64,000 nt of DNA from Hyphomicrobiales bacterium. Its GTDB lineage: Bacteria; Pseudomonadota; Alphaproteobacteria; Rhizobiales; CAJQND01. The notes beneath the pieces were generated by a model. It made no database searches. It was not told the origin of the DNA and worked only from the letters and a program-made list of their open reading frames with translations. Positions 2 through 10,965 of this stretch are shown here, in pieces. The DNA is taken from contig JANQOW010000066.1 of the NCBI GenBank assembly GCA_028285595.1, positions 350 through 64,349 on the forward strand, in the 5' to 3' direction. Within the stretch, counting starts at the first letter, position 1. Every line of letters begins with the position of its first letter. The translations under genes were made by a program, and so were the position numbers.

Positions 2-274
2 ACCAACTTCGGCACCCGCGGTAAGATGGACAAATGCACCTTCTGTGCAGGCGGTCCGGAAACGGCCCATTCCGATGCGGAGTTCAAGAAGTACGGCCGC
101 AACCGGATGGCTGAAGGCAAGCTGCCTTTGTGCGCAGAAATGTGCGCAACCAAAGCCCTCCTGGGCGGTGACGGCGACCAGCTGTCCGACATCTACCGCG
201 AGCGTGTGATCGCCCGCGGCTTCGGGTCGGGCGCCTGGGGCTGGGGCCGCGCCTATCCGGGCGGTGGCTCGTAA
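2..274 (+). CDS. 4Fe-4S iron-sulfur (beta) subunit of a formate dehydrogenase-N-like molybdoenzyme, C-terminal fragment; 5' end lies outside the window
   Basis: Frame of ORF 26..274 stays open back to base 2 (TNFGTRGK-MDKCTFCAGG). Cys clusters CTFCAG and PLCAEMCATKA are typical of DMSO-reductase-family FeS subunits. The next gene is an FDH-gamma-like cytochrome b. Confidence 0.7.
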   Translation, partial: TNFGTRGKMDKCTFCAGGPETAHSDAEFKKYGRNRMAEGKLPLCAEMCATKALLGGDGDQLSDIYRERVIARGFGSGAWGWGRAYPGGGS

Positions 275-415: not shown

Positions 416-1519
416 ATGACCAAGATCCTCGCCGCACTCAACATCCGATACTGGCTCACCGCACTTTTGTTTGTGGTGTTTGCCGCGATGGGCTCCACCA
501 TGGCCACAGCCGACGTGCGCGGGCCCGAGCCTCCCAAGCAGGATCTGCAATATCTCGATGAAGACAGCGACATCTGGAGCAAGATCAGACACGGCTACGA
601 AGGCCGCGGCGGTGTTCTCATCCAATCCCAGGGCGAAGACTGGCGCATTTTGCGCGAAGGCCCGCTGTTGCGCTACACCGCAACCGCTCTCTTGGTCACG
701 GTTGTGCTGCTGGCGCTCTTCTTTGCGGCCCGCGGACGTATCAAGATTGAGCATGGCTGGTCGGGTTGGACCATTGAGCGGTTCAACATGCCCGAACGCA
801 TGGGGCACTGGATCTTGGCCGTTTCGTTCATCATCCTCGCGATCACCGGGGCGAACATCAGTTACGGCAAATTCGTACTGATGCCCATCTTGGGCAAAGA
901 CATCTTTGCCGCGCTCTCAATCGGCGGCAAGTATCTGCACAACTATGTGGCCTTTGCGTTCATCCTGGGTCTGGTGTGGGTGTTCGTCGCCTGGATCAAG
1001 GACAACTTCCCCCGCAGGGCGGACCTCACCTGGCTGATGCAGGGCGGCGGCCTGTTTGTGAAAGGTGTCCACCCGCCCTCCCACAAATTCAACGCAGGCC
1101 AAAAGGTCATCTTCTGGATGACCATCCTCACCGGCATCTCCATTTCCCTGTCCGGCTGGGCGCTCCTGTTCCCGTTTGAAACCCAGATGTTCGCCAAGAC
1201 CTTCGCGATGATCAACGCGGTCGCCGGCACAGAATTGCCCACCACGCTGACCGGCATTCAAGAACAGCAATACGCGGTCACCTGGCACAAGATCATGGCG
1301 ATCTTCATGATCTGCATCATCATGGCCCATATCTATATCGGATCGGTGGGGATGCAGGGCGCCTTCGCGGCCATGGGATCCGGCCGGGTCGATCTGAACT
1401 GGGCCAAAGAGCATCATTCCCTCTGGGTGAAGAAGCTGGAGGATGAGGACAAGCTCGGCAAGCAGCCCGATGATGAGCATCAGGCTGAGGCCGGCGCCAA
1501 AGCGCAGCCCGCAGAATAA
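416..1519 (+). CDS. formate dehydrogenase gamma-subunit-like membrane cytochrome b
   Basis: 367 aa. GGAGAG Shine-Dalgarno-like sequence before ATG 416. Hydrophobic N-terminus followed by several TM helices carrying conserved His (HWILAVSF, HNYVAFAF, WHKIMAIFMI, AHIYIG). Sits directly after the FeS subunit. Confidence 0.7.
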   Translation: MTKILAALNIRYWLTALLFVVFAAMGSTMATADVRGPEPPKQDLQYLDEDSDIWSKIRHGYEGRGGVLIQSQGEDWRILREGPLLRYTATALLVTVVLLALFFAARGRIKIEHGWSGWTIERFNMPERMGHWILAVSFIILAITGANISYGKFVLMPILGKDIFAALSIGGKYLHNYVAFAFILGLVWVFVAWIKDNFPRRADLTWLMQGGGLFVKGVHPPSHKFNAGQKVIFWMTILTGISISLSGWALLFPFETQMFAKTFAMINAVAGTELPTTLTGIQEQQYAVTWHKIMAIFMICIIMAHIYIGSVGMQGAFAAMGSGRVDLNWAKEHHSLWVKKLEDEDKLGKQPDDEHQAEAGAKAQPAE

Positions 1520-1529
1520 CGGGCTGGCC

Positions 1530-2918
1530 ATGCTTGAGCGCAGGACCACCGCCCGCGTCTTGCTCTTGGTGATGTTCACGCTGGCCGGCATTTTCTCGGC
1601 CGCAGCGACAGGAAACCTGAAAGGCCATGGCGGCCCCGTGAAGGCCATCACCGTCTCTGAGGACGGCACCCGGGTGCTCTCCGGCAGCTTCGATTACTCC
1701 ATGATCCTCTGGGATCTGACCGGTGCTGAGCCCAAGGAGCTGCACAGTTTCGATGATCATGATGGCGCGGTGAATGACGCCGCGTTCTTACCCGGCATGA
1801 CGCGCGCCCTCTCCGCCAGCGATGATGGCACGGTGAGCCTATGGGACCTGGAAACCCGCTCCCTGATCAAGCGCTTCAAAGGCCATAGCCACAAGGTGGT
1901 GAAGCTTGCGCTCAATGGGGATGGGACAAAGGCCGTCTCCGCCTCTTGGGATCGCACGGCCAGGATTTGGGATCTCAAGACCCAGGAGCCAGGTCCGGTG
2001 CTGAAGGGGCACCGCAACACCATCAACGATGTCACCTTCTCTACCGACGGCGCGCATGTGTTCACGGCAGGCTATGACGGCACCATCCGTCAGTGGCGCA
2101 CGGACACCGGCGAAGAGGTGGGCGAGCTGTTCAGCCATGGCTGGGGCGTCAACGTATTGGCCGCCCTGCCAAACGGCGAGCAGCTCATGTTTGGCGGGCT
2201 CAACGGCTTCGTCGGGCTCGTGAACATCAAGACGGGCAAGATCGACCGGCCCTTGCGGCCCTCTGAACGTCCCTTCCTGTCGATGACCGTAAACCCCAAG
2301 CTGGGCCTTGCGGCAGCCGGCGCCGGGGACGGCCGTATCTCCGTTTGGGAGCTGGAGACGTGGAAAGAGAAGTTCTCTTACGACAACCCCTTCGGCCCGG
2401 CCTGGGCCCTGGCGTTCCGCCCCGACGGAAAGTCGCTTTATTTCGGCAGCTTGGATGACGAGGTGATTTTATGGCAGATGGAACCGGCCAAGCCGTTCGA
2501 GGTGGCCGAAGGCAAGTTCCCGCGCCGGTTCCAAATCACCGAGGGTATTGATCCCGGCGCTTTACAGTTCGCCCGCAAATGTTCCATCTGCCACACCCTG
2601 ACACCCGACACGGCCAACCGGGCCGGCCCCACGCTTTACAAAGTGTTCGGCCGCAAGGTGGGCACGCTGCCGGGCTACAGCTATTCCAAGGCGCTGAAGG
2701 ACCGCGATTTCATCTGGACGCCTGAAACGGTGGAAGCACTGTTTGCCGAAGGACCGGAAAACTATGTGCCGGGCACCAAGATGCCGCTGCAGAAGATGAC
2801 CAACGAGGAAGAGCGCAAAGCACTGATCGCCTTCCTCAAGCATGCCACCGAAACCGGCAAGCCCGCTGCTGAGGCCTATGTCTCCTACGAGGCGGCCAAG
2901 AAGAAGCAGAAGAACTAG
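1530..2918 (+). CDS. WD40-repeat beta-propeller protein with C-terminal class I c-type cytochrome domain
   Basis: ATG 1530 lies 10 nt after the upstream stop. N-terminal hydrophobic anchor (ARVLLLVMFTLAGIFSAAA). Repeated WD-like units ending LWDL, LWDL, IWDL, QWR, VWEL, LWQM. C-terminal CSICH haem-binding motif with a downstream GTKMP Met-ligand motif. Confidence 0.8.
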   Translation: MLERRTTARVLLLVMFTLAGIFSAAATGNLKGHGGPVKAITVSEDGTRVLSGSFDYSMILWDLTGAEPKELHSFDDHDGAVNDAAFLPGMTRALSASDDGTVSLWDLETRSLIKRFKGHSHKVVKLALNGDGTKAVSASWDRTARIWDLKTQEPGPVLKGHRNTINDVTFSTDGAHVFTAGYDGTIRQWRTDTGEEVGELFSHGWGVNVLAALPNGEQLMFGGLNGFVGLVNIKTGKIDRPLRPSERPFLSMTVNPKLGLAAAGAGDGRISVWELETWKEKFSYDNPFGPAWALAFRPDGKSLYFGSLDDEVILWQMEPAKPFEVAEGKFPRRFQITEGIDPGALQFARKCSICHTLTPDTANRAGPTLYKVFGRKVGTLPGYSYSKALKDRDFIWTPETVEALFAEGPENYVPGTKMPLQKMTNEEERKALIAFLKHATETGKPAAEAYVSYEAAKKKQKN

Positions 2919-2954: not shown

Positions 2955-2990
2955 CGCGTTCCTGCGAAAGCAGGAACCTTCTCTGCCAGT
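2955..2990 (+). repeat. intergenic GAAA-tetraloop hairpin element, copy A
   Basis: GTTCCTGC-GAAA-GCAGGAAC (2958-2977) followed by CTTCTCTGC, 40 nt after the stop of the WD40-cytochrome c gene. Near-identical cores occur at 24367-24386 and 42218-42237. Confidence 0.7.
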
Positions 2991-3084: not shown

Positions 3085-3372
3085 ATGTTCGTCATCCTTC
3101 TAAAGTTCTCCGACAACAAAGCCGAGGCCGGCACCCACATGGACGGCCACAATCAGTGGCTGAAGCAGGGCTTTGACGACGGCGTCTTCCTCCTGGCCGG
3201 CAGCATCAAGCCAGGCCTCGGCGGCGCCATCCTTGCCCACAACATCGCAGCAGAGGCGCTCCAAACCCGCGTTCAGCAAGACCCCTTCGTTGCGCAGAAT
3301 GTGGTCAGCGCCGACATCCTGGAGATCGCCCCAGCCAAGGCCGATAAGCGCTTGGAGTTCCTGCTCTCTTAA
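3085..3372 (+). CDS. YciI-like family protein
   Basis: 95 aa. MFVILLKFSDNKAEAG...H..WLKQG...GVFLLAGS...DPF pattern typical of YciI/DGPF small alpha+beta proteins. AGGAG precedes the ATG. Confidence 0.65.
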   Translation: MFVILLKFSDNKAEAGTHMDGHNQWLKQGFDDGVFLLAGSIKPGLGGAILAHNIAAEALQTRVQQDPFVAQNVVSADILEIAPAKADKRLEFLLS

Positions 3373-3434
3373 TGACAATCCGGCCCGGAGGCGGTAAAAC
3401 AAAGCCCAAGAACGTCCACGTTGCAGAGGATCAA

Positions 3435-3560
3435 ATGAAGGCTTTTATCGCAGCGCTCGCCGTGATCGGCATCGTCAGCACGATTGCCGCAGTTACCTTG
3501 GAAAACTTTGCCGGGTCGACCGAGAGCGTCAACACTTCAAACGCCGTGCGTTTGGACTGA
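3435..3560 (+). CDS. small single-pass membrane protein, hypothetical
   Basis: ATG 3435 preceded by GCAGAGGA. MKAFIAALAVIGIVSTIAAV forms a TM helix. No family recognised. Confidence 0.35.
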   Translation: MKAFIAALAVIGIVSTIAAVTLENFAGSTESVNTSNAVRLD

Positions 3561-3569
3561 GCCAAAGCA

Positions 3570-4520
3570 GTGAAGCGCACCAGTCTTGGTGGCCTTCTGG
3601 GCGCACTGGCCTTGACCGGGCTCGTGCTCCTCACCCCTGCACGGGCCGACAATGTGGAAGGTCTGCGCAATGTGATGGGCTCGGTGGTCTCCGTGTTACC
3701 GCGCACGGCACCAGGCAACGCCAACAAGGATGAACCGGAAGGCTCCGGAGTGGTGATCTTCGACGGCCGCCACATCCTCACGGCCCGGCATGTCCTGACC
3801 AATGCAGAAGAGATTGTGGTGAGAACCTTCGACGGTGTCGTTCACCGGGCCATATTGCGCGGACAGGACCCTGCCACCGATCTCGCCCTGTTGGAGATCG
3901 AAACCAAACTGAAGCCCATCGAACTGGGCGATGATGCCAAGATCGGCGAACAGGCCTGCGCCATTGGAAACGCCTTCGGTCTTGGCCTGTCGCTCACCTG
4001 CGGCATGGTGTCGGCGGTCCATCGCACCGGCACGGGCTTCAACCCGGTGGAAGATTTCGTGCAGACCGACGCCGCCGTGAACCCGGGCTCGTCCGGCGGC
4101 GCACTGGTGAGCAAGTCCGGAAGACTGATTGGCTTGCTCTCCGCCATCTTCACAAAGTCGGCTGATGCCAATATCGGCGTGAACTTTGCGATTTCGACCG
4201 CCTTGGCCTTAAGGGTCGCCACAGATCTGCGCACGGGCAAGCGGCCAAGGTGGGCGTTCGGCGGGGCTGGCCTTGGCACTGTCCCGGGCCGCGGCGGTCT
4301 GGGACGCATGGGCGCTGAAGTGCTGCGGCTCAGACCGGGTGGTGCGGCGGAGAAAGCCGGCCTGAAACCCGGCGACATCATCCGCTATGTGGACCGTCGG
4401 CGCATCAAAACACCGCGAGACTTCCGCTCGGCCATGGCGCGGCTTTTGCCAGGCGACAAGGTTGAGGTCGGTTTTGAGCGGGACGGCAAAGAAGAACGCG
4501 CCACCCTCACGGCGCAATAG
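3570..4520 (+). CDS. trypsin-like (S1C, DegP/HtrA-type) serine protease with one C-terminal PDZ domain, secreted
   Basis: Signal peptide (LGALALTGLVLLTPARA). Catalytic triad contexts TARHVL, DLALLE and NPGSSGGALV. PDZ-like GLKPGDIIRYVDRRRI. Confidence 0.8.
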   Translation: MKRTSLGGLLGALALTGLVLLTPARADNVEGLRNVMGSVVSVLPRTAPGNANKDEPEGSGVVIFDGRHILTARHVLTNAEEIVVRTFDGVVHRAILRGQDPATDLALLEIETKLKPIELGDDAKIGEQACAIGNAFGLGLSLTCGMVSAVHRTGTGFNPVEDFVQTDAAVNPGSSGGALVSKSGRLIGLLSAIFTKSADANIGVNFAISTALALRVATDLRTGKRPRWAFGGAGLGTVPGRGGLGRMGAEVLRLRPGGAAEKAGLKPGDIIRYVDRRRIKTPRDFRSAMARLLPGDKVEVGFERDGKEERATLTAQ

Positions 4521-4553: not shown

Positions 4554-4745
4554 ATGGACGACGAAAAATTCAACATGTCGATGCGCAAATTTCTCAAGCA
4601 GGTGGGTGTGACGTCCCAGCAGCAGATCGAGAAAGCCGTGCGCGACAGCGGCAAAAGCTCCGGCACCGTGGCCGTCAAGGTCGTGCTCAGCGGCCCGGAC
4701 GTGGGCCTTGAGCACACGGTCGAAGGCGAGATTGACTTAGGCTGA
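4554..4745 (+). CDS. small conserved hypothetical protein (63 aa)
   Basis: AGAAGG Shine-Dalgarno-like sequence before ATG 4554. First ORF of a tightly packed same-strand gene series. No motif recognised. Confidence 0.5.
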   Translation: MDDEKFNMSMRKFLKQVGVTSQQQIEKAVRDSGKSSGTVAVKVVLSGPDVGLEHTVEGEIDLG

Positions 4746-4760
4746 CGCAAGGCCAGGCGC

Positions 4761-5498
4761 ATGCATCTGCCCGACCCCACATTCCCCCCTCTCCTCACCG
4801 GCCACGATGTGAAGGGAAAGCCCGGCCCGTTCGAGCTGGCCTGCGCCAAGGCGGCAGCGGGCGAAGCCGGCGCGGGTGATGTGTTTTGGGCCCGCGACAC
4901 TGCGCGCCTGGACTGGGCCTGCGTCCTGGAACCGGAGGTGGCAACAGCGCGTGCCTTGCAGATGCACTTCGTCGCCATGCTGGCGTTTGGCGATGCGTTC
5001 GGCGCAATCTCACCGCCTGAAATCGCGCTCCACTTCCGCTGGCCGTCTGACCTGTTGGTCAATGGCGGCAAGGCCGGTCAGGCCAAGGTGGCGGTGGGGC
5101 CGGAAAACGCAGAAGGCATAGCCGACTGGATGGCGGTCGGCATCACGCTCACGATCAAGCGCGACACAACCGGCTTTGAACCGGGCGATGCGCCGGAGGA
5201 AACCGCGCTCAATGAAGAAGGCTGCGGCGAGATCACCAGAACCGAATTGGTGAACTCCCTGTCGCGCCATTTCCTCAATTGGGTCCACACCTGGAACGAG
5301 GAAGGCTTTAAGGGCGTCCATGAAGGCTGGCTCGCCAAGGCGGAAAACTGGCAGCACGAGGTAAGCCTCACCTGGGACGGCGCCCGGCACACCGGGACCT
5401 TTGTGACCATTGACGACGAAGGCAACCTGCTTTTGAAAACCGATGACGGCATGATCTCCTTACCAATCGCCAAAGCCGTGGAGGCTGGGCCGGCATGA
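4761..5498 (+). CDS. biotin/lipoate protein ligase (BPL/LplA/LipB) superfamily-like protein, function unknown
   Basis: 245 aa. The N-terminal pattern (LPPTFPPLLTGH ... D.ARLD.A.VLEPE) resembles proteins I recall being annotated as biotin/lipoate--protein ligase family in alphaproteobacteria. This is recognition from memory and needs an HMM check. Its stop overlaps the next start (ATGA at 5495-5498). Confidence 0.5.
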   Translation: MHLPDPTFPPLLTGHDVKGKPGPFELACAKAAAGEAGAGDVFWARDTARLDWACVLEPEVATARALQMHFVAMLAFGDAFGAISPPEIALHFRWPSDLLVNGGKAGQAKVAVGPENAEGIADWMAVGITLTIKRDTTGFEPGDAPEETALNEEGCGEITRTELVNSLSRHFLNWVHTWNEEGFKGVHEGWLAKAENWQHEVSLTWDGARHTGTFVTIDDEGNLLLKTDDGMISLPIAKAVEAGPA

Positions 5499-5986
5499 AG
5501 TTCTTCAAGGCCATCCGGTTTGACGGATCAGACGACAATGTGTTCCCCAAGGGGGCGGAACCGGACGAGTGGACCGTGTCGGGGAGCTTTGCGTTCGGCG
5601 ATATGGAACCGGCCCAACTCACCGGAAAGATGAAACAGGCCTTTGCCAACGGTCTGCTCGGCCTTAGGAGCGGCGGACACACGACTTTCGTCACCGTGTC
5701 CGACATGACGGAGAGCGAATATGAGGAGGCGGTTCAGCTTTTGATAGAGCATTTTATGACCGCGTATGGGGCTCCTTCAACCGAGGCCGCCGAGCCGTAC
5801 GCCCGCGAGGAAATCGACTTCATCGCCGAGCTCTGTTCGGAAAAGCCGGTGAACACGCTTTTTGCCGTCAGCCGCGAAGTGGATGAGGAGGGCAATCTGC
5901 GCGAGGCCTTCCACGAGATCAAGCGGGGCAATCCGTCCGAAGCCGATCACGCGAAAATCTGGGAGGTGGTGCCCGATGACGGTTGA
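5495..5986 (+). CDS. conserved hypothetical protein (163 aa, acidic; DUF6505-like from memory)
   Basis: ATGA start/stop overlap with the upstream gene and an 11-nt overlap with the downstream gene. No catalytic motif recognised. Confidence 0.55.
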   Translation: MKFFKAIRFDGSDDNVFPKGAEPDEWTVSGSFAFGDMEPAQLTGKMKQAFANGLLGLRSGGHTTFVTVSDMTESEYEEAVQLLIEHFMTAYGAPSTEAAEPYAREEIDFIAELCSEKPVNTLFAVSREVDEEGNLREAFHEIKRGNPSEADHAKIWEVVPDDG

Positions 5987-7013
5987 ACAGGTCACCGCAC
6001 CCGACTTTTGGCTCACCTCGGGCTATCATCTTTTGAACGAGAACGAAGATGGTTCGCTGGCCCTGAGCGAGGACTATCTGCGCGCCTATCTGAAACGCGC
6101 AGAGCTGGCACCGGTCGAAGAAAGCTGCGCCAATGAGCGCACGCTTCACGCCAGTTTGCTGGACGATCCCTTCCAGACCGTTGAGGCGGCGCGTCTTTCC
6201 AGCCTGGCTGATGAGGACATGCAGCACAATTTTGGTGTGTTTCTGGGTTTTAGGGATTTCGTTCAAGACGCCGGCTCGCTGGAGGCGGCTTATCTCGCCA
6301 TTGCCCGCGGCAAGGCGCCCCTAGCGGTGCCTCCCCTGTTCGTGGATCAGATGGTCCATGCCATCCTGCGCAACGTTCTGCGCGAAGTGGGCGACCCCTT
6401 GCGCCTTCGGGCAGCAGAACTCTTTTTCCGCGATCAGAACGTTTCGACCGAAGAGGGCATCGTCATGCTGGCCGATGACGAGACCGTGGAGATGTTCGCT
6501 GAAACCGGTGGTTTCGGTTCACTGGGCCAGCTCATCAAGGAGGCCAATACGTCGCTCAGGCAAGTGCAACTCGATGTCTTGCACGAAGACAACAGCGCGC
6601 TCTACTGGCCGCGCTCGGACCGCTTTGACACCGTCATCGATTTCCGGTTCCTGCAACCGGCCAACGATGCCTTTTGCCGGGTCTTGGAGGCCTGGATGGC
6701 TCACTTCCTGGATCTCACCGTCAGCGTTCAACCCAAGCCGCGCATCGACGACGAGCGCTGGACCTGGCATATTGGGCTGGATGCGGAAGCCACCCGCATC
6801 CTGAACGCCCTGTATGAGGGCCACGAGGTGGGAGAGGCCGAGCTTGAGCAGATCATCGGCCTGTTTGAGATGCATGTGAAAGACAAAGGCGCGCTCAGCC
6901 CTGCGGTGGAGGGCCGGCCGATCTATCTGGGTCTTGCGAAAACCAAAAGCGGCAAGCTGAAGATGAAACCGCAAAACCTCTTGACCAACCTGCCCCTGGC
7001 GGCGGAGGCGTGA
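5976..7013 (+). CDS. conserved hypothetical protein (345 aa; DUF6352-like from memory)
   Basis: The internal ATG 5976 (MTVEQVTAPDFWLTSGYHLL) gives a coupled start. The longer track ORF from 5862 would overlap the previous gene by 125 nt. Confidence 0.55.
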   Translation: MTVEQVTAPDFWLTSGYHLLNENEDGSLALSEDYLRAYLKRAELAPVEESCANERTLHASLLDDPFQTVEAARLSSLADEDMQHNFGVFLGFRDFVQDAGSLEAAYLAIARGKAPLAVPPLFVDQMVHAILRNVLREVGDPLRLRAAELFFRDQNVSTEEGIVMLADDETVEMFAETGGFGSLGQLIKEANTSLRQVQLDVLHEDNSALYWPRSDRFDTVIDFRFLQPANDAFCRVLEAWMAHFLDLTVSVQPKPRIDDERWTWHIGLDAEATRILNALYEGHEVGEAELEQIIGLFEMHVKDKGALSPAVEGRPIYLGLAKTKSGKLKMKPQNLLTNLPLAAEA

Positions 7014-7019
7014 ACGATC

Positions 7020-7316
7020 ATGGCCGAGCCTGACAGCGTCCTAGATGGCCGAGGCTCCCGGATCGCAGCCGGGCTTCTGTGCGCCGTTTGCATCGGCCTG
7101 ATCGTCTTCCTCAATTGGCACGTGATGTTTCCCCCGCCGGTCAAGAAAGGCGAGGACGATGCCAAGCTGAACCCGGAGTATGTCGCCTGCCGCGACGCGC
7201 GCCTGGTGACGGTTCAGAAGATGAAGGATGATGGCGTCATCAACGAGGCGCAGTTTACGCAGTTCTCTGCCCGCGCGGAGGAAACCTGCGCCGGCCAGTT
7301 TCCACCTGGCGGCTAG
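7020..7316 (+). CDS. small single-pass membrane protein, hypothetical
   Basis: 98 aa. TM helix AAGLLCAVCIGLIVFLNW. Starts 6 nt after the upstream stop. Its TAG stop shares the tetranucleotide CTAG with the stop of the convergent NRPS-like gene. Confidence 0.45.
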   Translation: MAEPDSVLDGRGSRIAAGLLCAVCIGLIVFLNWHVMFPPPVKKGEDDAKLNPEYVACRDARLVTVQKMKDDGVINEAQFTQFSARAEETCAGQFPPGG

Positions 7317-10024
7317 CGACTCTCTTCCAAAGCCGATCTGACCAGATCCGCAAGCACGGCGAGATATCTCCCGCGGGTCATGGAGAAGTGTGATCCGGGA
7401 ACCCAATGGGTCCGAACCTGGCGCGCCAAGGCGGCCCAGCCCAGGGTGTCCTCGGCGAACCCTTGTGTTTCTGCCGAAGCCTGCTGGGCCCGGAACAAGT
7501 TGAGACGACCGCCATAGCCTTCAGGCAGGTAGGCCCGGCGGGCTTTGTCGTGGAGGCCGGTGAGCTGGATTGAGCGCCGAATTCCAGGCTGACGCATCAT
7601 CAAAAGACGCGAATTGCGGTCCACCGCCGAGGCCAGGCCGGACGCTTTGTGGAATGTGCGAAACATCGCATTGGTCCAAAGAGCGCTAAGCGTGGCCCCC
7701 CCCTCGCCTTTTGCTCGCTGGTAGCGCGCTTCGGCGCCGAACAAGACATAGAGCCCGTCCAGCGCCATGGGCCCGGCTTGGGTGAGAATCTGACCGAAAA
7801 ACCGCAGTTCACGCCAGGTGTTCTTGAGCGCCGGCAAGACACCCCGCCCCGTGCTGGATCGCGGCGGTGTGGGGGTATCGATCAGACCGAGGAACGAAAC
7901 AGCCTGTCCCTCGCGCTCAAGCTGCACGGCCATCTCATAGGCGAGCAAGCCGCCAAAGGAATGGCCACACAGCCGGTAGGGACCCAGGGGCTGCACAGTG
8001 CGGATTTGCTCGATCAAACTTACGGCCATGGCGGGCACCGTGCGTTGTGGCTCGGTGGCAAGGTCGCAAGCAGGGTCCTGCACGGCAAACACCGGAAAGT
8101 CGCCGCCCACGGCCTGGCCCAGCTCAAACACGGTGAACGCGAGACCTCCCGCACCATGGATTAAGAAGAGCGGCGGACCGTTGCCATCGGTCCGCAGGCT
8201 GACCAGCGCCGTTGACGGGCGAAAGGCCCTGGCTTCATTTATGGAGCGCGCCAGCGCTTCAACTGTAGGCTCCTCCAAAAAGCTGTTCAGCTCGATTTTC
8301 GCATCCAAGGTGGTCTCCAAAGCCAGGAGAAACTCCACCGTCATTAAGCTGTCACCGCCCAGATCAAAGAAGCTGTCGCATATCCCCACTGGCTTGACCT
8401 TCAACGCTTCGGCCATGAGCGTGGCCAGCCGCAACTCCAGCGCATCACGCGGCGCGATGTACGCCGTGGCAAGGTCCGGCCGAATGCTCTCCGGCGCAGG
8501 AAGCGCGTTACGGTCGATTTTGCCGGACGGGGTCAACGGCAGATCGCTCACCTCAACAAACTGCGCCGGACACATGGCGGCCGGCAGATGGGTCCTGGCG
8601 AGCTGCTGCAGCGCCGACGTTAGGGTTTCATCACCACCTCTCCCCGCGGCGGGCACAATGTAGGCCACCAAGCGCTTGGTCTCCTCATCGCCCTTCAGCG
8701 CCACGATCGCTTCACGCACGCCGGCATGGCGCAGCAGGACCGCCTCGATTTCAGCCGGTTCAATCCGCACGCTGTTGATCTTGATCTGATTGTCGATGCG
8801 CCCGTGGAAGCTGAGTTGACCATCGGTCCTGACCGCCACCCGGTCACCGGTCCGATAAGCTGTGCCTTGCGGCAGTTGCACGAAGCGCTCCGCCGTTAAG
8901 GCAGGCTGAGCCACATATCCCCGAGACAGCGTCGGACCCAGGAGCCAGAGTTCTCCCACGTCTCCATGGTTCACCGGCTTTCGGGCGTCATCCAAGATCA
9001 GCGTTTCGAAATGGGCAAGCGGCTTGCCAATGGGGATGCTGCCCTGCTCGACATCATCATCGGTAATCTCGCCCGCCGTTGCCCACAAGGTGGTCTCCGT
9101 CGGCCCATAGAGGTTCCAAACGCTCTTGGCACGCGCTTTCAGCTCGCCCGCCATGCGCGGACTGATCGCCTCAGCGCCGGTCAAAAGGGTCAACGCCGCA
9201 TCGCCTTGCCAGCCGGCCGCGAGCAGCAATCGCCAGGTTGCCGGTGTGGCTTGCAAAAGACTTGGCTGCTCAGCCTCAATGCGGCTTATCAGGCGACGCC
9301 CGTCGCGCGCTTCGCCGGCGGTGGCAAGCACCACGGTTCCCCCGGCCTGGAACGTTAAGAACAGATCGAGCAACGAGATATCAAAGCTCGGCGAACTGAC
9401 CGACAAAACGGACGCTAGCGCCTCGCTGGGCAAGACCGCAGCCATGGAGGTCAGGTAGGTGATCAGGGCCTTGTGATGGATTTGGATCCCTTTGGGCCGA
9501 CCGGTGGAGCCTGAGGTGTAGATGATATAGGCAAGATCATCGCCCTGTGCGCGCCACTTTGGAGAGCCTGAACTGCGCTCAGGTGGAGCTCCCTCGTTCG
9601 CCCCCACATACACGGTCGCTGCCCGGCAATTGAGGGCCAATGGATCTGTGTCCCGGGCCACCAGCAAGAGCTTGATCCCCACCTCATCGGCCATAGCGCG
9701 GAGCCGGGCTTTGGGATAGGCCGGATCCAAGGGCAGCCAGGCGCCGCCGGCCAGGGTGACCGCGAGGATCGCAATGACGCACTCAGCAGAGCGCCCCAAG
9801 TAGATCCCGCACACATCCCCTGCCTGGAGCCCCGCCCCATGCAGTTCCGCCGCCAGAGCACGGGCCCTGAGATCGAGCTCATCGTAGGAATACGTGGTCT
9901 CTTTGACCTTGATCGCCGTTCGGGTCCTGAACGCGGCGTGAGCCGTTGTCCAGAGTGCACCGAGAGTATCACCGGCCGTGGTCTCATCCAGGGTGAAAGG
10001 CAGAGAAGCAGCAAACGTCGCCAT
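7313..10024 (-). CDS. single-module NRPS-like enzyme: adenylation - peptidyl carrier - thioesterase (A-T-TE), no condensation domain
   Basis: A-domain motifs YIIYTSGSTGRPKG, YRTGD, GRIDNQIKINSVRIEPAEIE and PLTPSGKIDR. Carrier motif FFDLGGDSLM. Thioesterase GHSFGGLLAYEMA. ATG 10024 is chosen over GTG 10060, so the start is uncertain. Confidence 0.85.
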   Translation of the reverse strand: MATFAASLPFTLDETTAGDTLGALWTTAHAAFRTRTAIKVKETTYSYDELDLRARALAAELHGAGLQAGDVCGIYLGRSAECVIAILAVTLAGGAWLPLDPAYPKARLRAMADEVGIKLLLVARDTDPLALNCRAATVYVGANEGAPPERSSGSPKWRAQGDDLAYIIYTSGSTGRPKGIQIHHKALITYLTSMAAVLPSEALASVLSVSSPSFDISLLDLFLTFQAGGTVVLATAGEARDGRRLISRIEAEQPSLLQATPATWRLLLAAGWQGDAALTLLTGAEAISPRMAGELKARAKSVWNLYGPTETTLWATAGEITDDDVEQGSIPIGKPLAHFETLILDDARKPVNHGDVGELWLLGPTLSRGYVAQPALTAERFVQLPQGTAYRTGDRVAVRTDGQLSFHGRIDNQIKINSVRIEPAEIEAVLLRHAGVREAIVALKGDEETKRLVAYIVPAAGRGGDETLTSALQQLARTHLPAAMCPAQFVEVSDLPLTPSGKIDRNALPAPESIRPDLATAYIAPRDALELRLATLMAEALKVKPVGICDSFFDLGGDSLMTVEFLLALETTLDAKIELNSFLEEPTVEALARSINEARAFRPSTALVSLRTDGNGPPLFLIHGAGGLAFTVFELGQAVGGDFPVFAVQDPACDLATEPQRTVPAMAVSLIEQIRTVQPLGPYRLCGHSFGGLLAYEMAVQLEREGQAVSFLGLIDTPTPPRSSTGRGVLPALKNTWRELRFFGQILTQAGPMALDGLYVLFGAEARYQRAKGEGGATLSALWTNAMFRTFHKASGLASAVDRNSRLLMMRQPGIRRSIQLTGLHDKARRAYLPEGYGGRLNLFRAQQASAETQGFAEDTLGWAALARQVRTHWVPGSHFSMTRGRYLAVLADLVRSALEESR

Positions 10025-10146
10025 GGGCTCAAGTCTTAGATAGTCAAACCAGCCGCCCACGCTAACGCATCAGCGCGCACACGTGCGCACACGAAGTTTA
10101 ATGTTTTCGTGAGGCGCGAGTGCGCGCGACTTGAGACCGTTTCAAG

Positions 10147-10965
10147 TCAGGTCCCGGTCTTGACCGCCTTCCAATACTGCTGATTGAGGTAGTCGACCAG
10201 GCCGTCATGCTTCTCCTGAAGGCACTTCTTCAGGCTAATCCTGCGATTCACACTGGTGACATAGCGGCACAGCTCAAGCGCGCCACGCGCTTTATCGCGG
10301 GCTTCCGGCGTAAGCGGCTTTCCGGGTGCGGCGGCCGCGGTTGTGGCGCGGCGCCACATGGGCTCCACCTGATTTCGCTTGCTGCCACGATCGGGCAACA
10401 GATTGATCATGCGAGATGTGATGCGGGCAGCCTGCATGCGCGAAGAGTTGCTGTCCACGATCTGGCTCCCAAGCTTGCGCAAGGGCCCGGTGAAGAGATC
10501 AGCTTCAGCCTTCCCGATGGCGGTAGGATCCGCGCGGGTGGGCAGAGGCAGAAGCGCCGCATGGGCGGCCACGTGGACCGAAACATGAGTCAGGCCGTAA
10601 GACTTCAGCTTGGCCCGGTCAATGCTGACACGCACCGCCAAATGGCGCCGCTGGGAGACGAAGCGCGCAACTTGGCCGGCATCCAGTGAAATGCTCCGCC
10701 CGTCCGGCGTGGTCCCCACCAGTTGCACCAGACCTTCGGTGGCCAACTCATACTCGGTGCCCTTTGGCGGCGAGATGCGACTGGAATCAAGACAGAACGA
10801 TGTGAGTTCGGCGCTGCAGGTCGCACCGGCGCAGGCCAGATCGATGGTACCGCCGGTTTCCACCAACGCCAACGCCTGCGGTGCCGCAGCCGCCCCCGGT
10901 GCCCCCGCCACAAGGCCCGACAAGACTAATCCGGTGATCGCAAAGCAATGTTGGATGGACTTCAT
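10147..10965 (-). CDS. secreted hypothetical protein (272 aa)
   Basis: ATG 10965 is preceded by GAGGAGG. Signal peptide MKSIQHCFAITGLVLSGLVAGAPGAAAA. The upstream part of the track ORF (to 11241) has no coding character. Confidence 0.55.
   Translation of the reverse strand: MKSIQHCFAITGLVLSGLVAGAPGAAAAPQALALVETGGTIDLACAGATCSAELTSFCLDSSRISPPKGTEYELATEGLVQLVGTTPDGRSISLDAGQVARFVSQRRHLAVRVSIDRAKLKSYGLTHVSVHVAAHAALLPLPTRADPTAIGKAEADLFTGPLRKLGSQIVDSNSSRMQAARITSRMINLLPDRGSKRNQVEPMWRRATTAAAAPGKPLTPEARDKARGALELCRYVTSVNRRISLKKCLQEKHDGLVDYLNQQYWKAVKTGT

What the first reader, a model, noticed from the sequence alone, without database searches (positions are those of the whole stretch)
4554..7316. Translationally coupled five-gene operon of uncharacterised proteins including a biotin/lipoate-ligase-fold member, downstream of the formate dehydrogenase genes
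Seen directly: five same-strand ORFs are packed with gaps of 15 nt, -4 nt (ATGA at 5495-5498), -11 nt (ATG 5976 inside the ORF ending 5986) and 6 nt. A secreted DegP-like protease ends 33 nt upstream. None of the five has a recognisable catalytic motif. One (4761-5498) resembles proteins annotated as biotin/lipoate--protein ligase family; the next two resemble DUF-only families. Both calls are from memory and need confirmation. Inference: a ligase-fold protein with no obvious acceptor, tightly coupled to two unknown cytoplasmic proteins and a small membrane protein, could be an unrecognised protein- or cofactor-modification system. It may relate to maturation of the adjacent respiratory enzyme.
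Basis: partly seen in the sequence, partly recalled or inferred. Interest (0 to 1): 0.6.

Follow-up and report, generated by a model that had tools for sequence, protein, structure and literature searches.

The report
Dead biotin-ligase-like module beside formate dehydrogenase
Five tightly packed genes of unknown function, one a biotin-ligase look-alike that lacks the ligase's working residues, travel with one type of periplasmic formate dehydrogenase in hundreds of bacterial genomes and are most likely untested helpers that build or service that metal enzyme.

Summary
Five same-strand ORFs lie at 4554-7316 with junctions of +15, -4, -11 and +6 nt. They are DUF6494, a BPL_LplA_LipB_2 protein (closest structure PDB 3BFM, function unknown), DUF6505, DUF6352 and a conserved 98-aa membrane protein with two cysteines.

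The ligase-like protein is not a working BirA. It lacks the GRGRxGR loop. The catalytic lysine position is Lys in only 5 of 86 orthologues. A true BirA is encoded elsewhere in the genome.

The link to formate dehydrogenase is strong.
- In 58 full 20-kb loci, the BPL-like/DUF6505 pair has the polyferredoxin, DUF3305 and DUF3306 within 10 kb in 57 and the Tat-exported Cys-type alpha subunit in 55.
- In 401 sampled genomes, all 22 with DUF6505 and all 16 with DUF6352 fall among the 45 with DUF3305.
- That FDH type almost never co-occurs with FdhE (1 genome in common).

DUF6505 and DUF6352 give confident models with no PDB relative.

Best reading (about 0.55): a cytoplasmic, non-catalytic assembly or cofactor-loading module for this FDH. 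No experiment exists. This scan noted the same module four times before in other genomes.

The parts
2..274 (+). 3' part of the FDH beta (4Fe-4S) subunit gene; the gene starts before the window
   Evidence: 74-84% identical to FdhB in related loci. The full gene is C14:30-605. Contig C163 (reverse complement) overlaps the head of C14 by 99 nt and carries TorD-like FdhT, small Tat protein FdhX and FdhA with a Tat motif (RRTFLK) and a Cys-His active site (ARICHSTT).
416..1519 (+). FDH gamma (cytochrome b) subunit with an N-terminal extension of about 120 aa
   Evidence: TIGR01583 139.5 bits (cut-off 115.85); PF01292.
1530..2918 (+). WD40 propeller fused to a class I cytochrome c, a probable periplasmic electron acceptor
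   Evidence: WD40 Pfam hits plus a cytochrome c-550-like C-terminus. Syntenic with the FDH genes in the 12 same-order loci of the first 20 loci (L026, L033, L034, L036-L042) and in L144.
2958..2986 (+). GAAA-tetraloop hairpin after the WD40-cytochrome c gene; a possible partial terminator that may separate two transcription units
   Evidence: An 8-bp stem GUUCCUGC/GCAGGAAC in the MFE and centroid folds; the whole 176-nt region has z = -1.9. The T-tract is weak.
3085..3372 (+). YciI-like small protein, a local addition
   Evidence: PF03795 E 1.7e-4, below the cut-off. Found only in the nearest relatives L045 and L046.
3372..3560 (+). 62-aa protein with one hydrophobic helix
   Evidence: ORF; KD19 maximum 2.49; present in L045 and L046.
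3570..4520 (+). DegP/HtrA-like serine protease with one PDZ domain and a signal-like N-terminus
   Evidence: Trypsin_2 and PDZ_2; TIGR02037 214 bits, below its cut-off. Same position in L042, in L045 and L046 and in L144.
4554..4745 (+). DUF6494, a 63-aa acidic soluble protein
   Evidence: PF20104 98 bits; in 48 of 58 full loci; no PDB sequence relative.
4761..5498 (+). BPL-fold pseudo-ligase (BPL_LplA_LipB_2 plus BPL_C), 245 aa
   Evidence: PF16917 210.7 bits; PDB 3BFM E 7.5e-39. GRGRxGR loop deleted; catalytic Lys position not conserved; family invariants P58 W94 N101 G102 G106 W123 T148 L150 E153 G154 C155 R169 H170 D218.
5495..5986 (+). DUF6505, 163 aa, acidic, soluble
   Evidence: PF20115 179 bits. 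AF2 pLDDT 88.9, pTM 0.80. No Foldseek PDB hit below E 0.29. 733 clusters at 50% identity, essentially all single-domain.
5976..7013 (+). DUF6352, 345 aa, acidic, soluble
   Evidence: PF19879 294 bits. AF2 pLDDT 85.5, pTM 0.84. No Foldseek PDB hit below E 0.5. More than 5,594 clusters at 90% identity.
7020..7316 (+). 98-aa protein with one transmembrane helix and a conserved domain holding two invariant cysteines
   Evidence: KD19 maximum 2.37 at residues 15-33. Homologues follow DUF6352 or DUF6494 in L039, L045, L046, L131 and L144. Invariant N51 P52 C57 R61 M68 G72 F82 R85 A86 C90.

Best explanation
The five genes are a cytoplasmic accessory module of a Tat-exported, cysteine-type, FdnGHI-like formate dehydrogenase. 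This is the FDH3 / Shewanella So_4507-4511 type: FdhT (TorD-like), FdhX (small Tat protein), FdhABC, plus DUF3305, DUF3306 and a roughly 690-aa polyferredoxin, and no FdhE.

Shown:
- The genes are real, translationally coupled and conserved.
- They are bound to this FDH type by both synteny and phyletic pattern.
- The BPL-like protein has lost the residues that make BirA a ligase.
- DUF6494, the BPL-like protein, DUF6505 and DUF6352 are acidic and lack hydrophobic segments.
- The fifth protein has one transmembrane helix.

Inferred:
- The BPL-fold protein acts as a non-catalytic binding scaffold (for a ligand or a partner protein), in complex with DUF6505 and, in this order, DUF6352.
- The complex works before Tat export, together with the TorD-like chaperone, the polyferredoxin (NapF-like role) and, in many lineages, a dedicated Mrp/ApbC Fe-S carrier encoded in the same operon.
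- Its job is to load or proof-read the Fe-S clusters and/or the Mo/W-bisPGD cofactor of FdhAB.
- The small membrane protein may tie the process to the membrane or to Tat.
For: (1) Synteny. Among 58 full 20-kb loci around DUF6505 from named genomes, BPL-like is present in 58, Mrp 57, polyferredoxin 57, DUF3305 57, DUF3306 57, TorD-like 56, FDH alpha 55 and the small Tat protein 53. The same genes appear in different orders in the 20 loci.

(2) Phyletic pattern. In one sample of 401 genomes, DUF6505 occurs in 22 and DUF6352 in 16, all inside the 45 that have DUF3305. This includes 4 genomes where DUF6352 lies 97 kb to 2.8 Mb away from the FDH cluster or DUF6505.

(3) Independent rearrangements keep the link. 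Family f34 has BPL-like, DUF6352, DUF6494 and the small protein beside the polyferredoxin, without DUF6505. Family f23 has a shortened BPL-like gene beside DUF3305. In L135 the two overlap by 4 nt. In L142 the DUF3305 gene is followed by DUF3306, TorD and FDH alpha/beta/gamma.

(4) Coupling. The BPL-like to DUF6505 junction is -4 nt in 53 of 78 loci. The Mrp to BPL-like junction is -4 nt in 30. The Mrp in the cluster is an extra paralogue in f17 and f62 genomes.

(5) The ligase is dead and a true BirA exists elsewhere in the genome.

(6) The window's own FDH is complete once contigs are joined, and FdhE is absent.

(7) A complete 5.58-Mb genome shows the same gene order, including the fifth gene.
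Against: No experiment bears on any of the five proteins, and no paper in the library names DUF6505, DUF6352 or DUF6494. Neither DUF has a structural or profile relative that would indicate a chaperone or carrier. There are no conserved Cys or His clusters for metal binding in the soluble proteins. Beta- and gammaproteobacterial clusters of the same FDH type lack the BPL-like protein and DUF6505, and Shewanella FdhAB is made from fdhT-fdhX-fdhAB in its native host (PMC13066108). The module is therefore not universally needed. Related genomes are not independent samples, so the counts overstate the statistical weight.
Confidence: 0.55

Rival explanations
1. The BPL-fold protein is still an enzyme with a new chemistry. 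It would use the family-specific conserved residues (E153, C155, R169, H170, D218) to modify FdhA/FdhB, the small Tat protein or a cofactor covalently, with DUF6505 and DUF6352 as substrate-presenting or carrier subunits.
For: The fold is that of acyl-adenylate and acyl-transfer enzymes. A set of polar residues is nearly invariant across 86 orthologues, including a Cys in 78 of 86. By recall, LipB of the same superfamily uses a Cys-Lys dyad. DUF6352 has many invariant charged and aromatic residues, as enzymes do.
Against: All three BirA signatures are missing or unconserved: STN, GRGRxGR and the catalytic Lys. The conserved Cys is replaced by F, A or G in 8 of 86 and by F in the f23 short form. 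There is no hit to LplA or LipB models. No candidate acceptor with a conserved lysine-bearing domain is encoded nearby.
Confidence: 0.15
2. The module belongs to a separate cytoplasmic redox or sensing system built around the polyferredoxin, DUF3305 and DUF3306. Examples would be an electron-input or repair route, or a regulator of FDH expression, rather than assembly of the exported enzyme.
For: The polyferredoxin carries several 4Fe-4S motifs and has no signal peptide. A short BPL-like gene is translationally coupled to DUF3305 in f23. In L135 the BPL-like/DUF3305/DUF3306 trio stands without FDH genes within 10 kb.
Against: No DNA-binding or sensor domain occurs in any of the five proteins. 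No flavin- or NAD-binding partner is encoded nearby. The same set is found only in genomes with this FDH type. Neighbouring genes are typical maturation functions: TorD-like, FdhD, MoeA, MobA/B, Mrp and TupABC.
Confidence: 0.12
3. The linkage is historical only. The genes were carried along with a mobile FDH gene island and act in an unrelated process.
For: DUF6352 sits far from the FDH cluster, with unrelated neighbours, in four sampled genomes (G024, G027, G298, G331). A Burkholderiales MAG contig of 8.5 kb that carries DUF6352 holds no FDH gene. The module is missing from many clusters of the same FDH type.
Against: Gene order has been reshuffled repeatedly while the association persists. 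The unlinked DUF6352 copies are still confined to DUF3305-positive genomes, 16 of 16. Overlapping start and stop codons with Mrp, and with DUF3305 in L135 (and probably L142), indicate co-translation with maturation genes.
Confidence: 0.08

Closest known systems
PDB 3BFM, 'biotin protein ligase-like protein of unknown function' (structural-genomics entry); Pfam PF16917 BPL_LplA_LipB_2
   Same: Direct homologue of the 245-aa protein, E 7.5e-39 over residues 7-236. Same two-domain layout. The chain likewise has Arg, not Lys, at the BirA catalytic position.
   Different: Nothing is known about its function. The depositors' name is purely descriptive. The link to FDH is not part of the entry name or of any paper found.
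BirA-type biotin protein ligases (own-genome BirA on contig C25; S. aureus BirA 3V7C/4DQ2/6NDL)
   Same: Same fold and C-terminal BPL_C domain. Retained structural motifs: the W of KWPND and N-G...G around the catalytic strand.
   Different: The GRGRxGR loop is deleted and the STN motif is absent. The catalytic Lys position is variable across orthologues (K in 5 of 86). The protein scores 36.7 bits against TIGR00121's cut-off of 83.1, while the true BirA scores 137. Public records nevertheless name some members 'biotin-(acetyl-CoA carboxylase) ligase' or 'BirA'.
Shewanella oneidensis fdh cluster So_4507-So_4511 (FdhT chaperone, FdhX, FdhABC), with the adjacent DUF3305/DUF3306/Fe-S genes; fer4-DUF3305-DUF3306-TorD-fdhTAT-fdhGHI operons described by Bay et al. 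2015
   Same: Same FDH type and the same core accessory genes. TorD-like, small Tat protein, DUF3305, DUF3306 and polyferredoxin are all present in this genome.
   Different: The sampled beta- and gammaproteobacterial clusters of this FDH type lack the BPL-like protein and DUF6505. Those proteins are an add-on found mainly in Alphaproteobacteria. Neither paper mentions them.
Redox enzyme maturation proteins and helpers of Tat molybdoenzymes: TorD/NarJ family, FdhE, FdhD, NapD, NapF
   Same: Proposed working analogy: cytoplasmic, soluble, encoded with their enzyme and acting before export. The polyferredoxin resembles NapF in motif content (TIGR00402 E 2.5e-10, below its cut-off).
   Different: There is no sequence or profile relation between any of the five proteins and the TorD-like family (hhalign probabilities below 1%). 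FdhE is absent from this genome and from 44 of the 45 sampled DUF3305 genomes.

Membership tests
BirA-type biotin protein ligase | BPL_LplA_LipB catalytic-domain fold plus BPL_C domain | tested here: met
   PF16917 210.7 bits and PF02237 28.4 bits. PDB BirA chains match at E about 5e-6.
BirA-type biotin protein ligase | GRGRxGR biotin/ATP-binding loop | tested here: not met
   An alignment of 86 orthologues with the genome's own BirA (GRGRLGR) shows the loop deleted. The window has ...DVFWARDTARLDWACVL....
BirA-type biotin protein ligase | Catalytic lysine (E. coli K183 equivalent) conserved | tested here: not met
   The window has K104, but the column is K in only 5 of 86 orthologues (R 30, A 12, S 12, L 10, T 6). 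3BFM has Arg there.
BirA-type biotin protein ligase | Score above the curated equivalog cut-off (TIGR00121) | tested here: not met
   36.7 bits against a cut-off of 83.1. The true BirA on contig C25 scores 137.1.
LplA / LipB lipoate or octanoyl transferases | Match to LplA or LipB models, with a conserved Lys (and Cys in LipB) dyad | tested here: not met
   No LplA or LipB model appears among NCBIfam or Pfam hits. The Lys column is not conserved. A family Cys (C155) is present in 78 of 86, but its equivalence to LipB's catalytic Cys was not tested structurally.
TorD/NarJ-type redox enzyme maturation proteins | Homology to PF02613 (Nitrate_red_del) | tested here: not met
   No Pfam hit for any of the five proteins. 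hhalign against the cluster's own TorD-like family gives probabilities of 0.5% or less.
FDH3 / So_4509-type formate dehydrogenase gene cluster (context of the module) | Tat-signal alpha subunit with a Cys-His active site, beta and gamma subunits | tested here: met
   The reverse complement of C163 joins C14 by a 99-nt overlap. FdhA has RRTFLK and ARICHSTT. Beta and gamma are in the window.
FDH3 / So_4509-type formate dehydrogenase gene cluster (context of the module) | TorD-like FdhT, small Tat protein FdhX, DUF3305, DUF3306 and polyferredoxin present; FdhE absent | tested here: met
   TorD-like and the Tat protein are on C163. The polyferredoxin and DUF3305 are on C126. DUF3306 itself was not looked for in the own genome. 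PF04216 (FdhE_N only) was not found in a 99.4%-complete genome.
FDH3 / So_4509-type formate dehydrogenase gene cluster (context of the module) | Enzyme actually oxidises formate | not testable with these tools
   Only sequence-level similarity is available. A related FDH alpha (from L030) scores 476 bits against TIGR01591, below the cut-off of 666. The window genome's own alpha was not scored.

The most novel reading that the evidence does not exclude
The BPL-fold protein has been repurposed from an acyl-adenylate enzyme into a holder of a nucleotide-bearing pterin (adenylylated molybdopterin, or Mo/W-bisPGD), or into an enzyme with a new chemistry on FdhA or its cofactor. With DUF6505 and DUF6352 (two folds without solved relatives) it would form a previously unknown cofactor-delivery machine, specific to O2-tolerant periplasmic formate dehydrogenases of aerobic Alphaproteobacteria.
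Probability: 0.12. Interest if true: 0.8.

Novelty: new variant of a known kind. Interest (0 to 1): 0.55.

Why it matters
Metal-dependent formate dehydrogenases are sought-after catalysts for CO2/formate interconversion. The Shewanella enzyme of this same type is reported to be O2-tolerant (PMC13066108). According to two recent papers seen only as abstracts (PMC13396061, PMC13714276), heterologous production of such enzymes is limited by maturation of the catalytic subunit.

A conserved but untested set of helper genes is therefore a concrete candidate list for the missing maturation factors. DUF6505 was found in at least 540 places in a collection of one genome per species. DUF6352 has more than 5,594 clusters at 90% identity.

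The work also gives three Pfam DUFs a testable context. It flags a systematic mis-annotation, since these proteins are named biotin ligase or BirA in public records. It shows that FdhE-dependent and DUF3305-type FDH systems are near-exclusive alternatives.

Tried and rejected
(1) FdhE replacement. I tested whether the BPL-like/DUF6505 module specifically replaces FdhE. FdhE_N is absent from all 22 DUF6505 genomes, but also from 22 of the 23 DUF3305 genomes that lack DUF6505. The anticorrelation therefore belongs to the FDH type, not to this module.

(2) Fold clues. Both AF2 models are confident, but Foldseek against the PDB gives nothing better than E 0.29 and 0.5. Profile searches of PDB sequences give nothing meaningful.

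(3) Hidden homology among the accessory families. hhalign all-against-all (BPL-like, DUF6505, DUF6352, DUF6494, DUF3305, DUF3306, TorD-like) gives probabilities below 9%.

(4) Rosetta-stone fusions.
- Long open frames in high-GC loci (900 aa in G220, 563 aa in G048) are spurious upstream extensions.
- The 427-aa 'DUF6505-DUF6352' protein P0384 is a frameshift artefact with Arg-rich out-of-frame stretches.
- P0340 and P0369 (ATP-synthase or FMN_bind tails) look like chimeric calls.
- No fusions appear among 120 BPL-like homologues.

(5) Conserved partners of unlinked DUF6352 copies. None was found.

(6) Literature. No paper holds DUF6505, DUF6352, DUF6494 or TM1040_0394, and the single '3BFM' hit is an unrelated paper.

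(8) The first search for related loci attempt, with a diverse alignment, failed for lack of a conserved stretch. A narrower alignment worked.


Full report
OBSERVATION

The five ORFs exist as described.

| Coordinates | Length | Identity |
|---|---|---|
| 4554-4745 | 63 aa | DUF6494 (PF20104, E 3e-28) |
| 4761-5498 | 245 aa | BPL_LplA_LipB_2 (PF16917, E 2e-62) plus BPL_C |
| 5495-5986 | 163 aa | DUF6505 (PF20115, E 5e-53) |
| 5976-7013 | 345 aa | DUF6352 (PF19879, E 2e-87) |
| 7020-7316 | 98 aa | no Pfam family |

I read the junctions base by base:
- 33 nt after the DegP-like stop, with a GAAGG ribosome-binding site;
- then +15 nt;
- ATGA overlap at 5495-5498;
- an 11-nt overlap (ATG 5976, TGA 5984-5986, GGGAGG upstream);
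- then +6 nt.

The first four proteins are acidic (pI 4.4-5.2) and have no hydrophobic segment. The fifth has one clear transmembrane helix at residues 15-33.

Upstream lie the FDH beta fragment, FDH gamma (TIGR01583 above its cut-off), a WD40-cytochrome c fusion, a hairpin, a YciI-like gene, a 62-aa membrane peptide and a DegP-like protease.

THE FDH IN THIS GENOME

The window starts 349 nt into contig C14. The reverse complement of contig C163 ends with 99 nt identical to the head of C14. It carries a TorD-like gene, the small 'formate dehydrogenase region TAT target' protein and FdhA, which has a twin-arginine motif (RRTFLK) and a Cys-His active site (ARICHSTT). Contig C126 carries the roughly 690-aa polyferredoxin, divergent from DUF3305. 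FdhD, MobA, MobB and MoeA are together on C85, and TupABC is on C31. FdhE (PF04216) was not found in this 99.4%-complete genome.

The adjacent enzyme is therefore a periplasmic, Cys-type, FdnGHI-like FDH of the kind described for Shewanella So_4507-4511 (PMC13066108). It matches the fer4-DUF3305-DUF3306-TorD-fdhTAT-fdhGHI operons of Bay et al. 2015 (PMC4464133).

IS THE BLOCK CONSERVED AND LINKED TO FDH?

Yes.

First sample. I took 20 loci of 19-20 kb around DUF6505 from a phylum-wide genome sample.
- The BPL-like and DUF6505 genes are adjacent in 18 of 20. In L038 a 428-aa ORF lies between them, and L035 shows no BPL-like gene.
- DUF6352 follows in all 12 loci of the window's own order.
- FDH alpha lies within the locus in 18 of 20.
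- Pfam and NCBIfam scans of the recurrent neighbours gave TorD/NarJ-like, DUF3305, DUF3306, polyferredoxin, Mrp/ApbC, FdhD, MoeA, MobA/B, the formate-TAT protein and TupA.

Second sample. A search of one genome per species found at least 540 encoding places. The best 80 are mostly Rhodobacteraceae/roseobacters, Roseibium/Labrenzia and Hyphomicrobiales. Counts among the 58 loci with full flanks:

| Gene | Loci out of 58 |
|---|---|
| BPL-like | 58 |
| Mrp | 57 |
| polyferredoxin | 57 |
| DUF3305 | 57 |
| DUF3306 | 57 |
| TorD-like | 56 |
| FDH alpha | 55 |
| small Tat protein | 53 |
| DUF6494 | 48 |
| TupABC components | 31-36 |

The common layout there is [FdhB FdhA FdhX FdhT DUF3306 DUF3305] on one strand. 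Divergent from it come [polyferredoxin], a c-type cytochrome on the first strand, then [DUF6494 Mrp BPL-like DUF6505], with TupABC convergent at the end.

Junction sizes are conserved. BPL-like to DUF6505 is -4 nt in 53 of 78 loci. Mrp to BPL-like is -4 nt in 30.

A complete 5.58-Mb genome (L144) has exactly the window's order, including DegP and a 97-aa fifth gene that overlaps DUF6352 by 4 nt.

PHYLETIC PATTERN

All searches used the same 401-genome sample.

| Family | Genomes with a match |
|---|---|
| DUF3305 | 45 |
| DUF6505 | 22 |
| DUF6352 | 16 |
| FdhE_N | 49 |

All 22 DUF6505 genomes and all 16 DUF6352 genomes lie inside the 45 DUF3305 genomes. This includes four genomes (G024, G027, G298, G331) where DUF6352 is 97 kb to 2.8 Mb from the FDH cluster or DUF6505 and has unrelated neighbours.

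FdhE and DUF3305 share only one genome (G349). Within families f2 and f3, genomes have one or the other. The two accessory systems are therefore near-exclusive alternatives. However, FdhE is missing just as much from DUF3305 genomes that lack DUF6505. The idea that this module specifically replaces FdhE is thus not supported. Genomes are related, so these counts are descriptive and not a test.

MOSAIC MAKE-UP

- The DUF3305-type clusters sampled outside Alphaproteobacteria (families f46, f56, f57, f61, f87) carry (Mrp)-DUF3305-DUF3306-polyferredoxin-TorD-FdhABC, with FdhD nearby, but no BPL-like protein or DUF6505.
- The four f17 and f62 genomes searched lack DUF6352.
- Family f34 has BPL-like, DUF6352, DUF6494 and the small membrane protein next to the polyferredoxin, with no DUF6505.
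- Family f23 has a shortened BPL-like gene next to DUF3305. In L135 its stop overlaps the DUF3305 start (9299-9838, then 9835-10323). In L142 a BPL-like match ends about 40 nt before the DUF3305 match, and DUF3306, TorD and FdhABC follow.
- In f17 and f62 the Mrp in the operon is an additional paralogue.

Repeated reshuffling with retained association argues for function rather than inertia. It also shows that the module is an add-on and not a universal requirement.

THE LIGASE-LIKE PROTEIN

It is a clear homologue of PDB 3BFM ('biotin protein ligase-like protein of unknown function', E 7.5e-39) and a distant one of BirA (E about 5e-6). I aligned 86 orthologues with the genome's own BirA, which has GRGRLGR and the GEKSAGIL lysine and scores 137 bits on TIGR00121. 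The alignment shows the following:
- The GRGRxGR loop is deleted.
- The STN motif is absent.
- The column of the catalytic lysine is K in only 5 of 86 (R 30, A 12, S 12, L 10, T 6).

The window protein scores 36.7 bits against TIGR00121's cut-off of 83.1.

Family-specific invariants are P58, W94, N101, G102, G106, W123, T148, L150, E153, G154, C155 (78 of 86), R169, H170 and D218. This is consistent with a retained pocket or interface of a different specificity. Public records often name these proteins biotin ligase or even BirA, which is misleading.

THE TWO DUFs AND THE SMALL PROTEINS

AlphaFold2 models built from alignments:

| Protein | pLDDT | pTM | Best Foldseek PDB E-value |
|---|---|---|---|
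| DUF6352 | 85.5 | 0.84 | 0.5 |
| DUF6505 | 88.9 | 0.80 | 0.29 |

PDB profile searches and hhalign among all accessory families were also negative. DUF6505 is essentially always a single-domain protein of about 160 aa: 733 clusters at 50% identity. Apparent fusions are frameshift or chimeric gene calls.

DUF6352 has many invariant Arg, Asp, Glu, Trp and His residues and no conserved Cys.

The fifth protein is conserved in four families, counting the window's own. It has invariant NP...C...R...M..G...F..RA...C after the membrane helix.

INTERPRETATION

Best-supported reading (about 0.55): a cytoplasmic, non-catalytic assembly or cofactor-loading module for the Tat-exported FdhAB. The BPL fold would serve as a binding scaffold in a complex with DUF6505 (and DUF6352). 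It would work alongside FdhT, the NapF-like polyferredoxin and a dedicated Mrp.

Shown: gene reality, coupling, conservation, association with this FDH type, and loss of ligase signatures. Inferred: complex formation, timing before export, and what is loaded.

Rivals:
- a new enzymatic modification chemistry (0.15);
- membership of a separate cytoplasmic redox or regulatory system around the polyferredoxin (0.12);
- mere historical linkage (0.08).

PRIOR KNOWLEDGE AND NOVELTY

No paper in the searchable library mentions DUF6505, DUF6352 or DUF6494. Bay et al. describe DUF3305 and DUF3306 with fdhGHI but not this module. The Shewanella work covers only FdhT and FdhX.

This scan's earlier notes record the same module four times in other genomes, with the same tentative conclusion. 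My tests were made independently on this window and agree. New here:
- the near-exclusivity of FdhE and the DUF3305 type;
- the confinement of unlinked DUF6352 copies to DUF3305 genomes;
- the f34 and f23 variants;
- the conserved fifth gene.

I rate it a new variant of a known kind: enzyme-specific accessory genes of a Tat molybdoenzyme, made of proteins unrelated to any known maturation factor. Interest 0.55.

LIMITS

- No multimer prediction was possible.
- Gene calls in related loci rest on tblastn plus simple ORF rules.
- Genome samples are phylogenetically structured.

Noticed in passing
genome-wide (401-genome sample); own genome contigs C126 and C163: FdhE_N (49 genomes) and DUF3305 (45 genomes) share only one genome. 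Within families f2 and f3, genomes carry one or the other. Periplasmic FDHs thus seem to come with two alternative accessory systems. This is at odds with a statement in Bay et al. 2015 that TorD-fdh species have fdhD/fdhE in trans.
   Followed up: partly
L135:9299-10323 and L142 (about 9385-10311): In family f23 a shortened BPL-like gene (179 aa, no C-terminal domain, Phe in place of the family Cys) lies directly before DUF3305. In L135 its stop overlaps the DUF3305 start (ATGA). In L142 the DUF3305 gene is followed by DUF3306, TorD and FdhABC.
   Followed up: partly
window 1530-2918; c14 genes in L048-L124: The window's order uses a WD40-cytochrome c fusion downstream of FdhC. Rhodobacteraceae-type clusters instead carry a roughly 280-aa secreted protein with a CGRCH haem motif between the polyferredoxin and DUF6494. 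Both look like dedicated periplasmic electron acceptors.
   Followed up: no
window 7313-7316: The fifth gene (stop at 7314-7316) and the convergent 915-aa stand-alone A-T-TE (NRPS-like) gene (7313-10060, minus strand) overlap by 4 nt at their 3' ends. The same neighbour is kept in the two closest MAGs (L045, L046).
   Followed up: no
proteins P0181, P0183, P0213, P0237 and others: Public sources name orthologues of the dead BPL-like protein 'biotin-(acetyl-CoA carboxylase) ligase' or 'bifunctional ligase/repressor BirA', a likely systematic mis-annotation.
   Followed up: partly
L048-L124, downstream of DUF6505: A TupA-type tungstate ABC transporter lies convergent to the BPL-like/DUF6505 operon in about 31-36 of 58 loci. 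This hints that the FDH may use tungsten in marine Rhodobacteraceae. In the window's genome TupABC is on another contig (C31).
   Followed up: no
DUF3306 sequences from L045-L142: Many DUF3306 proteins, notably those from beta- and gammaproteobacterial clusters, begin with a conserved basic motif (F-L/W-S-R-W-S/A-R-R-K) that resembles a twin-arginine motif. An acidic low-complexity linker follows. This could be a mimic that engages the TorD-like chaperone.
   Followed up: no
contigs C163 and C14 of the window's genome: The reverse complement of C163 ends in 99 nt identical to the start of C14. The two contigs therefore join, and the FDH operon is continuous: FdhT-FdhX-FdhA-FdhB-FdhC.
   Followed up: yes
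P0384, P0360, P0340, P0369: Metagenomic 'fusion' proteins of DUF6505 with DUF6352, ATP-synthase or FMN_bind pieces look like artefacts. P0384 is shown to be a frameshift. The other three were judged only from their Pfam layout. None should be used as Rosetta-stone evidence.
   Followed up: yes
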